A stretch of DNA of 64,000 nt from Myxococcota bacterium. GTDB lineage: Bacteria > Myxococcota_A > UBA9160 > JAFDDA01. Positions 32,401-35,400 of the stretch are shown in pieces. Each line of letters begins with the position of its first letter. Positions within the stretch are counted from its first letter, which is position 1. Made by a program: the position numbers. The stretch is from the NCBI GenBank assembly GCA_965228475.1, contig OZ245817.1:4864001-4928000 (forward strand), given 5' to 3'.

Positions 32401-35400
32401 GATGACCATCATCGAAAGCGCGAAGGCGAGGAGGAAGTTCCGGTCCAAAGTTCGCTCGGTTCAGGGGACGGGGTCGAGCCCGCCCTCATGGAAGGGGTGA
32501 CAGCGCGCGATTCGCCGGGCAGAGAGCCAGCCGCCCCGCACGGGGCCGTGGCGTTCCACGGCCTCGGCGGCGTAGCTCGAGCACGACGGGTAGAAGCGGC
32601 AGCTCGGCCCGAACAGCGGCGAGAGCGCGAGCTGCCAGAATCGGATGCCGAACAGGAGCAGCAGGGTAAGGCCCCGCTGGAGAAGGTTTTTTCGCTCCGG
32701 AGCCGGCGCGCTCACGAGATCTTCTCGAGCAGCTGGCCGCCGAGCGCGTCGAGGTCCGAGCGCAGAGCCGCGGAGTCCAGGCCGGCGGCCGAGGCGCGAG
32801 CGATCACGACCCAGTCGAGCCCGCCGGTCTCCCGGAGGCTTCCCTCGCGGAACCAGCTGCGAAGCCGCCGCTTCACGCGGTTGCGGACGACCGCGTTCCC
32901 GACCCGCTTGCTCACGGTCAGACCGATCCGCGCTGCTTCACCGAGTTCACCAAACGACGTTTCATCCCGAGGAGCCGCGAGCAGCACGAAATGACGCGAA
33001 GACGCACGGCGCCCCCGCTTCGAAACACGTCGGAAATCTCGACTGGCGCGGAGACGCCTCGCACGGCCGAAGTCCTGCGAGACGCCCGCTGCGGTGCCCG
33101 GGCCGGGCACGGCTACTTCGAGGGTACGGTCGCCGCGAGCCGCTTTCGGCCCTTGGCCCGCCGCCGCTTGAGAATGGCGCGGCCTGCACGGGTCTTCATG
33201 CGCGCGCGGAAGCCGTGGGTTCGCTTCCGCCGAATTCGGCTCGGCTGATAGGTTCGCTTCATCGCTCGTCCGTCCTGAGGAGGGGGCCGCCCGAGGAGCA
33301 GGGAAGGATCGCAACTCCCGGGGCCACCGAAGGCGCGCGAGGGTAGCTAGCCGCCCCGATCCATGTCAACCGGGAGAGGCCAGTACAAACCCGTGTTTCA
33401 TCGCGGGATTTCCTCGGAGCAAAGCGGGCTTCGAAGCCCCCCAACGGGTTCTGACGGCCAAGGCCCATGGTAAGATCCACCCTGTTCCGGCGAGAGCCCG
33501 TCCCCCCTCCGCCGGGCAGATGGGGTGGTCTTGCGGACAGAGCGAAAGCATCGCCGTTTCCAACGGTTCGCTGCGTTTTGTCGCCGCTCGGACGGACCAC
33601 TACTCCCACTGACTTCCTTCATTGAAAAAGAAAGAACGGAGTAAGAGGGAGATGAATCTTTCGATCAGCAAGCAGGAACTCCAGCGCGGTCTCGGTCGCA
33701 TCCAGTCGATCGTCGAGAAGCGCAATTCGATGCCGATCCTCTCGAACGTTCGCCTCGAAGCGGTGAAGGAGAAGTCCGGAGCCGCCTTGAAGCTCGCGGC
33801 GACGGACCTCGAGGTCGGCGTGCACAGTTCGCACGAAGCCCAGGTCAAGAAGGCCGGCGGTGTGACGGTCTCCGCGCGCAAGCTGCACGAGATCGTGCGC
33901 GAGCTTCCCGACGAGGACGTGAAGCTCGAGACCAGCGAGAACAACTACCTCGACATCGACTGCGCGCGTTCGCACTTCACGCTCGCGGGCACCGCGATCG
34001 AGGAGTACCCGACGCTGCCCGGTGCTTCGCCGAAGAAGATGATCCCGATGCAGGCGATCGTCCTCTCGCAGATGATCGACCGCACGATGTACGCGACCTG
34101 CGCGGACGAGACCCGTTACAACCTGAACGGCGTGTTCGTCGAGGTGCTCGCCGACGTCGGGAAGGTGCGGATGGTCGCGACGGACGGTCACCGTCTCGCC
34201 TGCGTCGATCGCGCCGTCGCGGAAGGCCTCGAAGACCTGCCGGCCGGCCTGATCATCCCGCGCAAGGGACTCGCCGAACTCAAGCGCCTCGTCGACGAAG
34301 AGGACGCGGACGAGGTCGAACTCGGCTTCGAGGGCAACAGCGGTCTCGTCCGCAAGGGCGACGTCACCCTCGCGATGCGGCTCATCGAGGGGGAGTTTCC
34401 GAACTATCGCCAGGTCCTCCCGAAGGAAGCCGGGCGTCGCCTCGCGGTGGCGGCCGAGCCTCTCGCCAAGGCGCTGCGCCGCGTGCACCTGCTCTCGAGT
34501 CAGCAGAGTCACGCGGTGAAGCTCGAGGTGAAGGAAGGCCAGATGGCGCTCTCGACGCGGAACCCGGATCTCGGCGAAGCGCGCGAGGAGATCGACGTCG
34601 ACTACGCCGGCGAGGAGGTCGAGATCGGCTTCAACGCGCGGTACCTGATGGACGCGGTCCAGGCGCTCGGCTCGAAGGAGATCATCCTCGGCCTCCAGGA
34701 CGGCCTCTCCCCCGTCGAGCTCCGCCCCGCGGACGACGACGAGTCGATCGCGGTCGTCATGCCGATGAGGCTCTAGCCAGCCCAGAATGGGTTAAAAGAG
34801 CGCCATCTCGACATGATACTGTGTCGGGATGTGGCGCTCTCTCGTGGTCATGCTCGTGCTGGTCGCATGGGTCCCGCACGTCTCGTCCGCCAGCGATGGA
34901 CGGATCGAGCTGAACCACGCCTGCGCCACCGGCGCCGGATGCCTCCCCGGAGATACCTCCGGCTACCCCATCACGATCGATCTTCCCGGTAGCTACGTCC
35001 TCACCGGGAATCTAATCGGTCCGGACCTCGACACGGACGTGGTCCAAGTCGGGGCTTCGGCCCGCGGCGTAAGCCTCCATCTGAACGGGTTCCGCATCTC
35101 CGGTCCGTTCCTCAGCTTCCGAACGGCGGGGCTCGGCAACGGGATCACGGTGGCGAGCCTCAGCGAAGTGCGGATCCACGGAGGCACGATCCGTGGCGTC
35201 GGTGGCTTCGGCATTCTCGGCGGGCCGGAGACCCGCGTGGATCGGGTGACGATCCAGGGAGTGGGACGGTCGGCCGTCGCGGGCAACGTCGGCTATGTCG
35301 GCCGAAGCTTCCTGCTCGACAGCCTCGAACTCGGGATCGATTTCCAGGGAACGAACGCCTCGACCGTCGTTGCGCAGACCGTCATGCGCGGAAACGACGC

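What a model noticed while it worked through the whole genome (the two positions that open the first line are those of the whole stretch)
33263..33651. Replication origin with a non-canonical DnaA box, matched by an altered DnaA recognition helix; dnaA sits 273 kb away
dnaA (g04139, 4623016) has left the rpmH-dnaN locus, yet that 389-bp spacer keeps an origin-like end: a conserved YTYGTCR box (here at 4897577) about 55-100 bp before dnaN, then DnaA-trio-like CT(A/T/C) triplets and an AT-rich stretch. Canonical TTATCCACA boxes are missing, and DnaA's box-reading helix has changed from DHTTV to (D/E)HP(S/A)V, pointing to an order-wide switch of DnaA box sequence.
Evidence so far: rpmH abuts dnaN without dnaA in 24 of 24 loci; only 1 of 24 spacers has a canonical box at <=1 mismatch. 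The motif occurs 46 times in 24 spacers (Markov control mean 12.9, max 25) and on the dnaN strand 50-130 bp upstream in 15 of 24 (control mean 1.4, max 5); trio-like runs in 12 of 24. Helix residues after RxH: PA 10, PS 6, SS 2, SA 2, TT 0 of 20 read (25 loci; call 215); solved DnaAs have DHTTV. dif-like site at 2382388 and skew maximum at 2.35-2.42 Mb lie roughly opposite. Box-spacer-trio architecture from PMC8287927 (passages).
(Added by a program. Inside this text positions count along the whole contig: contig position 4,864,001 is position 1 of the stretch shown here. "Call 12" and the like, gene names such as g00115 and contig names such as C1 are that model's own, and its searches are not shown. 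The text may have been shortened before it was handed on; [...] marks where a part breaks off. The agent that wrote the report below was given it as the finding of a first reader that could run no searches.)

Follow-up and report, generated by a model that had tools for sequence, protein, structure and literature searches.

The report
Replication origin with rewritten DnaA box
This gap between two genes is very probably the chromosome's replication origin in an uncultured order of Myxococcota whose initiator-binding DNA signal has been rewritten across the whole order, apparently when it lost one of two initiator genes that its sister order still keeps, so standard origin-finding rules would miss it and a new protein-DNA code can be tested.

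Summary
The origin call holds. Hexamer polarity switches at contig 4,897,084, about 180 bp from the spacer; dif lies opposite; three parS sites are 3.6 kb away. A leave-out box-plus-trio model ranks this site first in the genome. In 91 loci of the order the box reads TT(T/C)TGTC(G/C)G. In 20 genomes of the sister order the same position reads TT(T/C)TCCA(C/G)A, with the same box-trio distance, tandem period and upstream inverted box, which has also switched. The sister order has two dnaA genes (28 of 31 genomes): A, before dnaN, with canonical helix and decayed ATPase motifs; B, elsewhere, with largely intact ATPase motifs and an altered helix. This order lost A and kept B (tree support 99; synteny 9-10 of 10). 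B most likely reads the new box, but this is unshown: the proline is not required, the helix varies while the box does not, and B mostly lacks the arginine finger. The scan noted that finger loss before on other DNA (e1-2187856). New variant of a known kind.

The parts
33263..33651 (.). rpmH-dnaN spacer = predicted oriC (the dnaA gene found here in the sister order is absent)
   Evidence: hexamer and heptamer polarity minimum at contig 4,897,084; dif opposite; parS nearby; no dnaA remnant by tblastn in 90 spacers
33576..33584 (+). proximal variant box TTTTGTCGC, in the position of B. subtilis box 6
   Evidence: 15.1 bits with a matrix built without G000, G007, G016; best box+trio site in the genome; homologous position holds a near-canonical box in the sister order
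33585..33599 (+). 15-nt GC-rich spacer between box and trios; no clear second tandem box in this genome
   Evidence: sequence; spacer peaks at 12 and 15 nt in both orders
33600..33611 (+). DnaA-trio-like run CTA CTC CCA CTG (imperfect here)
   Evidence: strong runs in 48 of 91 order loci (3.8 expected) and 19 of 20 sister loci
33616..33645 (+). AT-rich tract (63% AT against 30% genome-wide), includes the dnaN ribosome-binding region
33534..33542 (-). distal inverted variant box CTCTGTCCG, 42 nt before the proximal box
   Evidence: 7.8 bits; offset 42-43 nt in 22 order hits, 38-40 nt in 17 sister hits
33449..33457 (+). weaker box-like site TTCTGACGG; may overlap a dnaN promoter (promoter by eye only; the scan found none)
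   Evidence: 9.4 bits
33396..33404 (+). weaker box-like site TTTCATCGC
   Evidence: 8.9 bits
33113..33262 (-). rpmH (ribosomal protein L34)
   Evidence: PF00468, E 5e-23
33652..34776 (+). dnaN (sliding clamp)
   Evidence: three DNA_pol3_beta domains
29569..29664 (.). three parS-like palindromes, the only ones found in the genome
   Evidence: (consensus recalled, <=2 mismatches)
26804..28811 (-). parB and parA

Best explanation
The spacer is oriC and works like the B. subtilis basal unwinding system: a proximal box positions the initiator, which polymerises along the trios and melts the AT-rich tract, helped by an inverted distal box on the same helical face. The box has changed from TT(T/C)TCCACA to TT(T/C)TGTC(G/C)G in the whole order. 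The change goes with a paralogue handover: the ancestor had two dnaA genes; the dnaN-linked copy A, which kept the canonical reading helix, was lost, and the off-locus copy B, with an altered helix, became the only initiator and reads the new box. Shown by computation: origin position, box switch at homologous sites, loss of A, orthology with B. Inferred: that B binds the box and unwinds at the trios, and the order of events.
For: Origin: polarity minima of 6- and 7-mers at 4,897,084 (bootstrap range about 4.882-4.898 Mb), 2,068 nats below the dnaA locus; arcs to dif 50.2:49.8 against 44.8:55.2 for dnaA; gene-strand switch at 4,894,717; parS. In three more genomes dif is nearer to opposite dnaN than dnaA (G040 48% vs 34%, G012 44% vs 38%, G001 63% vs 13% of contig length). 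Box: unseeded EM finds it; frequencies T80 T95 T78 T87 G88 T90 C96 G59/C33 G64 in 91 order loci against T85 T95 T65 T85 C95 C99 A85 C50/G45 A80 in 20 sister loci; second core most often at +8 in both (18 of 91; 7 of 20); double dissociation: order matrix 66 hits in the untrained distal part of order spacers (shuffle 22.7, max 32) and 4 in sister dnaA-dnaN gaps (shuffle 5.8), sister matrix 63 in sister gaps (shuffle 8.4) and 40 in distal order spacers (shuffle 32.6, max 44). The 5' TT-T part, read by Arg399 (PMC5742627, passages), is kept and Arg399 is kept in 46 of 46; the 3' part, read by helix 434-451, is what changed. Handover: 28 of 31 sister genomes have two or more dnaA; A precedes dnaN in 20 of 20; order DnaA scores 246-305 bits to B and 87-135 to A; order+B clade 0.999 FastTree, 99 SH-aLRT; the two genes upstream of G000 dnaA occur in 9 and 10 of 10 B loci and 0 of 10 A loci. 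B is the only DnaA-family gene in 78 of 78 good genomes (nine weaker hits checked, none is A); it keeps all four domains and the ssDNA-side residues E183, R206, T225, E228 in 46 of 46 and K/R222 in 46 of 46.
Against: No binding data. The reading helix varies more than the box (D433 in 34 of 46; position 435 P, S, T or A; H434L in G040 with a perfect tandem box). The box is not clearly enriched upstream of dnaA (16 hits, shuffle mean 8.7, max 17) and is not avoided genome-wide. The arginine finger is R in only 13 of 46, although it was required for unwinding in the species tested in PMC8287927 (results part 1); G000 also has A at sensor 1 and S at sensor 2, and scores 330.9 against the TIGR00362 cut-off 343.9. 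The I190 position is polar (T or Q) in 13 of 46. Strong trio runs are seen in only 48 of 91. The AU test did not reject a tree with order DnaA joined to A (p = 0.145). 4-, 5- and 8-mer and wobble-skew minima lie 12-100 kb from the spacer. Genomes are related, so counts overstate independence.
Confidence: 0.7

Rival explanations
1. The spacer is oriC, but the new box is read by another, unidentified DNA-binding protein that took over the anchoring role of lost copy A and recruits DnaA-B to the trios.
For: Helix varies while the box is constant, including H434L in G040; no clear box enrichment at the dnaA promoter; in the sister order B's helix is already non-canonical while the origin box is near-canonical, so B may not be the box reader there.
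Against: The new box keeps 9-bp length, the 5' TT-T part, tandem period 8, box-trio distance and inverted distal partner, which fit a DnaA domain IV; Arg399 is invariant; I found no candidate protein, but did not search for order-specific DNA-binding genes.
Confidence: 0.15
2. One reading: the single ancestral dnaA was relocated 273 kb and its helix and box co-evolved by point changes, the proline being the switch.
For: One dnaA per genome, far from dnaN; AU test p = 0.145 does not reject order+A; T. maritima also has an HP helix and a different box.
Against: Sister order has both copies; order DnaA shares neighbours, C-terminal consensus and clade with B, not A; box is the same in genomes without the proline.
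Confidence: 0.04
3. The motif is a transcription-factor operator or promoter element of dnaN, not an origin box; initiation is elsewhere or DnaA-independent, the degenerate DnaA-B being a regulator.
For: It lies 55-100 nt before dnaN; DnaA-B mostly lacks the arginine finger and G000 lacks sensor 1 and 2 residues.
Against: It replaces a near-canonical DnaA box at two homologous positions next to conserved trios; replichore polarity, dif and parS converge here; B is kept in 78 of 78 good genomes.
Confidence: 0.08
4. Artefact: motif from composition or shared ancestry, or a misassembled junction.
For: Related genomes are not independent; the matrix was trained on these loci.
Against: Spacers from at least ten families share little but the module; untrained distal region enriched; leave-out model ranks the site first; the stretch lies in one contig in two runs and the spacer in one piece in a third, though these may be the genome's source.
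Confidence: 0.03

Closest known systems
B. subtilis incC basal unwinding system (BUS): DnaA boxes 6/7, spacer, DnaA-trios, distal phased box (PMC8287927, PMC6669920, PMC10721633)
   Same: Place before dnaN; box, 10-16 nt spacer, CTA-type trios, AT-rich tract; tandem boxes; a distal box with helical phasing (offsets 42-43, 52-54, 61-63 nt); DnaA fold (8btg best match).
   Different: Box differs from TTATCCACA at 5-7 of 9 positions in 85 of 91 loci; no dnaA beside it; arginine finger missing in 33 of 46.
Thermotoga maritima DnaA and its 12-mer box AAACCTACCACC (PMC4285127, PMC6669920, PMC13643167, passages)
   Same: Altered domain IV with HP at the helix start and a one-residue turn deletion together with a non-canonical box.
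   Different: A different sequence: the T. maritima box keeps the CCAC end, this one keeps the TT-T start and loses CCAC; a 9-mer; spread over an order with a sister-order control and a paralogue loss.
Mild lineage boxes: Cyanobacteria TTTTCCACA, Actinomycetes TT(G/C)TCCACA, H. pylori TCATTCACA, Caulobacter TGATCCACA (PMC4285127, PMC10225481, passages)
   Same: Lineage-specific box in a conserved origin layout; the sister order's TT(T/C)TCCA(C/G)A is of this kind.
   Different: Those differ by at most two bases and keep CACA; this one does not.
Bacteria with two dnaA genes (Chlamydia, Planctomycetes, some Desulfovibrio; recalled, not confirmed by my searches)
   Same: Two DnaA paralogues in one genome, as in the sister order.
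   Different: Here the two show complementary decay (A: helix kept, ATPase motifs lost; B: the reverse) and one order kept only B.

Membership tests
Bacterial oriC | At the replichore switch, opposite dif, near parS | tested here: met
   three more genomes partly agree
Bacterial oriC | Replication starts here in vivo | not testable with these tools
   uncultured; contig depths are flat
BUS module (PMC8287927 rules) | Three or more trios within 16 nt of a box | tested here: met
   run of >=3 NTN starting with C within 21 nt in 46 of 91, peak 10-16 nt; G000 run imperfect, 15 nt from the box
BUS module (PMC8287927 rules) | Box within 2 mismatches of TTATCCACA | tested here: not met
   0 of 91 anchored boxes within 2; 16 of 20 in the sister order. 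The rule allows a species-specific box instead
BUS module (PMC8287927 rules) | Box- and trio-dependent strand separation by cognate DnaA | not testable with these tools
   bench assay needed
DnaA (TIGR00362) | Domains I, III and IV; DnaA fold | tested here: met
   PF11638, PF00308, PF08299 over cut-off; model pLDDT 88, rmsd 1.7 A to 8bv3
DnaA (TIGR00362) | Score over the equivalog cut-off | tested here: not met
   330.9 vs 343.9
DnaA (TIGR00362) | Arginine finger, sensor 1 and sensor 2 | tested here: not met
   G000 Q, A, S; order: finger R 13 of 46, sensor 1 D 39 of 46, sensor 2 R 45 of 46
DnaA (TIGR00362) | Canonical reading residues (Arg399; helix with H434, T435) | tested here: inconclusive
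   R399 46 of 46, H434 45 of 46, T435 2 of 46, T436 0 of 46, P423 2 of 46; roles of P423, D433, H439 recalled
Orthologue of the dnaN-linked dnaA (copy A) | Clade and gene neighbourhood of copy A | tested here: not met
   groups with B and shares B's neighbours; AU test alone inconclusive (p 0.145)
T. maritima-type box | 12-mer AAACCTACCACC | tested here: not met
   consensus here is a different 9-mer; no direct scan for the 12-mer was run

The most novel reading that the evidence does not exclude
The class evolved a two-protein initiator: in the sister order an ATPase-decayed DnaA-A anchors at the canonical boxes while DnaA-B supplies the unwinding filament. This order then discarded the anchor, rewrote every origin box to a sequence that B's own helix reads, and in most lineages also dropped the arginine finger, giving an initiator with a new DNA code that opens its origin without the ATP-sensing contact held to be required.
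Probability: 0.35. Interest if true: 0.88.

Novelty: new variant of a known kind. Interest (0 to 1): 0.75.

Why it matters
A 2015 review states that no analysed origin has boxes more than two mismatches from TTATCCACA, T. maritima excepted (PMC4285127, passages). This is a candidate second exception, 5-7 mismatches away, over a whole order, with a sister order that holds the before state at the same sites. It shows how an essential protein-DNA code can change: through a spare paralogue. It makes three things directly testable with short oligonucleotides and domain swaps: which domain IV residues set box specificity, whether two DnaA paralogues can split anchoring and unwinding, and whether the arginine finger is dispensable. 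It would also give a second orthogonal DnaA-box pair for chimera experiments, and origin finders that default to the E. coli box (PMC10225481, passages) will miss these origins.

Tried and rejected
Plain cumulative GC skew: plateau, minimum at the contig end, uninformative. 8-mer polarity (4,945,093) and wobble skew (4,997,568) are less sharp and off the spacer. Autoregulatory boxes upstream of dnaA: not clearly enriched. Genome-wide avoidance of the box: none. New-type boxes already present in the sister order's origin or rpmH-dnaA gap: not enriched (4 vs 5.8; 6 vs 4.4). Box clusters alone do not single out the origin: it ranks second; the other clusters lack trios. dnaA remnants in order spacers: none. 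Promoter scan of the spacer: nothing. Exact G000 parS pattern in five other genomes: 0 of 5. The careful IQ-TREE run did not finish; the quick tree is reported. A wide search with the B-like protein of G123 gave one close relative and otherwise general DnaAs, so B's age stays open. No RNA holder listed. One sister B row (G303) was dropped because the trimmed part missed domain IV. No complex prediction was run: the tool takes no DNA, and DnaA-DnaA pairs would pass by likeness to solved filaments. Literature: nine searches found no paper on this box, this clade's DnaA or its paralogues; the library lacks most subscription papers, the structure paper of domain IV on DNA was not held, and I did not read the supplements of PMC8287927 or PMC10225481, whose box tables could list such a motif.

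Full report
Setting. The window lies at 4,864,001-4,928,000 of a single 5,006,157-bp contig with a 19-bp terminal overlap, 70% GC, 96% complete. Record titles of the closest named relatives say Myxococcota or Deltaproteobacteria bacterium; the GTDB name UBA9160 for the order is my recalled guess and comes from no call. The locus reads parB, parA, rsmG, jag, yidC, yidD, rnpA, rpmH, spacer, dnaN, two unknown genes, gyrB, gyrA.

Observation. The genome has no TTATCCACA or TTGTCCACA on either strand and one DnaA-family gene, 273 kb upstream. Of 107 order genomes with a dnaN hit I examined 91; rpmH lies 262-947 nt before dnaN in 90, and one ends at a contig edge.

Is it the origin? Plain GC skew is flat here. 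Hexamer polarity learnt far from origin and terminus has its minimum at 4,897,084 and maximum at 2,383,009; the only dif-like site is at 2,382,369-2,382,396; arcs are 50.2:49.8 for the spacer and 44.8:55.2 for dnaA; gene strand bias turns at 4,894,717; three parS-like sites lie at window 29569-29664. Bootstraps put 6- and 7-mer minima at about 4.882-4.898 Mb, 4- and 5-mer minima at 4.881-4.885 Mb in the full data, and the dnaA locus 877-2,755 nats above the minimum. 8-mer and wobble measures fall 48 and 100 kb further on. In G040, G012 and G001 dif is nearer to opposite dnaN than dnaA, clearly so only in G040. A box-plus-trio model built without G000 and its two closest relatives ranks 33576 first in the genome: 32.7 against 26.6 bits with trios learnt from the sister order, 26.4 against 25.6 with trios from the order. 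I put the origin call at about 0.93.

The box. Unseeded EM on the last 140 nt recovers it. Anchored in 91 loci it reads T80 T95 T78 T87 G88 T90 C96 G59/C33 G64; in 20 genomes of the sister order (same class, one family) the same place reads T85 T95 T65 T85 C95 C99 A85 C50/G45 A80 (seeded). Anchored boxes differ from TTATCCACA at 5-7 positions in 85 of 91 order loci and at 1-2 in 16 of 20 sister loci. Geometry is shared: box about 60-90 nt before dnaN, trios most often 12 or 15 nt after it, second core most often at +8 (18 of 91; 7 of 20), strong trio runs in 48 of 91 (3.8 expected) and 19 of 20. An inverted box lies upstream in 38 of 91 and 15 of 20 (controls 16 and 22 of 91; 9 and 4 of 20) and has switched too; its offsets are 42-43 nt, with smaller peaks at 52-54 and 61-63, in the order and 38-40 nt in the sister order. 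In the distal part of order spacers, not used for training, the order matrix gives 66 hits (shuffle 22.7, max 32) and the sister matrix 40 (32.6, max 44); in sister dnaA-dnaN gaps the figures are 4 (5.8) and 63 (8.4). Many other Myxococcota show the canonical box and trios before dnaN, others show none that I could anchor. This layout is that of the basal unwinding system (PMC8287927, abstract, methods section 13 and results part 1; distal phased box in PMC6669920, passages).

The protein. All 78 good order genomes have a DnaA (117 of 121 in all), one strong copy each; nine weaker hits that I fetched are fragments of the same gene, stand-alone helix-turn-helix proteins or nothing. The sister order has two or more in 28 of 31 genomes; the three with one are 71-75% complete and hold B. 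Copy A lies between rpmH and dnaN in 20 of 20. It keeps P423, H434, T435, T436 and H439 in 20 of 20 but has sensor 1 D in 1, sensor 2 R in 2, box VII R in 1 and the finger in 9 of 20. Copy B keeps the finger in 19 of 19, sensor 1 D in 16 and sensor 2 R in 16, but box VII R in only 2, and has K/A at 423, S at 436 in 17 and Y at 439 in 18 (numbering by alignment; roles of P423, D433 and H439 recalled). The order's DnaA is B: 246-305 bits to B against 87-135 to A; clade support 0.999, 99 and 99; a Lon substrate-binding-domain gene and a YgjP-like gene upstream are shared with 9 and 10 of 10 B loci and no A locus. The AU test alone did not reject order+A (p = 0.145). A B-like second copy in G123, of another class, and unstable placement of A leave the date of duplication open. 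So dnaA did not move; the dnaN-linked copy was deleted.

Does B read the new box? For: Arg399 reads the 5' TTA and helix 434-451 the 3' TnCACA (PMC5742627, passages); here the 5' part and Arg399 (46 of 46) are kept, while the 3' part and the helix changed (435: P37 S6 T2 A1; 436: A28 S18; 438 never L, I or M; 439: N39 H7). Box length, tandem period and phasing fit domain IV; no other DnaA exists; the predicted fold is a whole DnaA and most ssDNA-side residues are kept (residue roles in PMC10721633, passages). T. maritima is a precedent for an HP helix with a new box. Against: the proline is not needed (G001, G004, G027, G036, G079) and G040 has H434L with a perfect tandem box; no clear enrichment at the dnaA promoter; no genome-wide avoidance; the finger is R in 13 of 46, and G000 also lacks sensor 1 D and sensor 2 R, whereas the finger was required in the species tested.

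Verdict. A real chromosomal origin of BUS type with a box far outside the known range, tied to the loss of one of two dnaA paralogues. It works like a BUS; it fails the canonical-box test and its initiator fails the finger test, so I file it as a new variant. Nine literature searches found no description (listings only); unseen supplements and subscription papers could hold one. Confidence in the full mechanism 0.7; interest 0.75.

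Noticed in passing
L093-L112, L193-L212 (sister order): Two dnaA paralogues with complementary decay: A keeps the reading helix and loses AAA+ motifs (the one A scanned has no DnaA_N hit); B keeps most AAA+ motifs and alters the helix. Worth its own study.
   Followed up: partly
G000 contig about 4,622,823-4,622,829 and 450 nt upstream of dnaA-B in L113-L132 and sister B loci: A CCG(A/T)CGG element, mostly 150-220 nt before dnaA-B, in 12 of 20 order and 12 of 20 sister loci (shuffle means 2.2 and 2.7); it contains the GTCGG end of the new box and also occurs in 35 of 90 order spacers. 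Reader unknown; could be B's older site.
   Followed up: partly
window 34829-35890 and 35903-36976: Two tandem genes, 51% identical, with no Pfam or NCBIfam hit and hydrophobic N-termini, sit between dnaN and gyrB where recF often lies; no recF over the cut-off in this genome.
   Followed up: partly
P0001 (G000 contig 4,623,016-4,624,440): Sensor 2 is S in G000 alone of 46, and sensor 1 is A in G000 and its congener G007; may affect ATP binding or hydrolysis.
   Followed up: partly
G000 contig 706,464-706,642: Best cluster of new-type boxes outside the origin (4 sites), between a membrane-protein gene and a gene that looks like a GntR-type regulator (by eye); no trios.
   Followed up: no
L240 (G123): A B-like second dnaA in another class of the phylum, with finger and near-canonical helix; one close relative in the protein database.
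   Followed up: partly
L075, L076 (G025, G018), L086, L164: Spacers in which no box-trio module was anchored within the last 140 nt; it may lie further upstream.
   Followed up: no
L236-L239 (G186, G139, G210, G134): Other Myxococcota lineages with altered DnaA helices; their boxes were not examined and could give independent helix-box pairs.
   Followed up: no
8-10 nt upstream of the proximal box in order loci: A conserved TT pair found by unseeded EM, also seen in seeded sister and outgroup alignments; role unknown.
   Followed up: no
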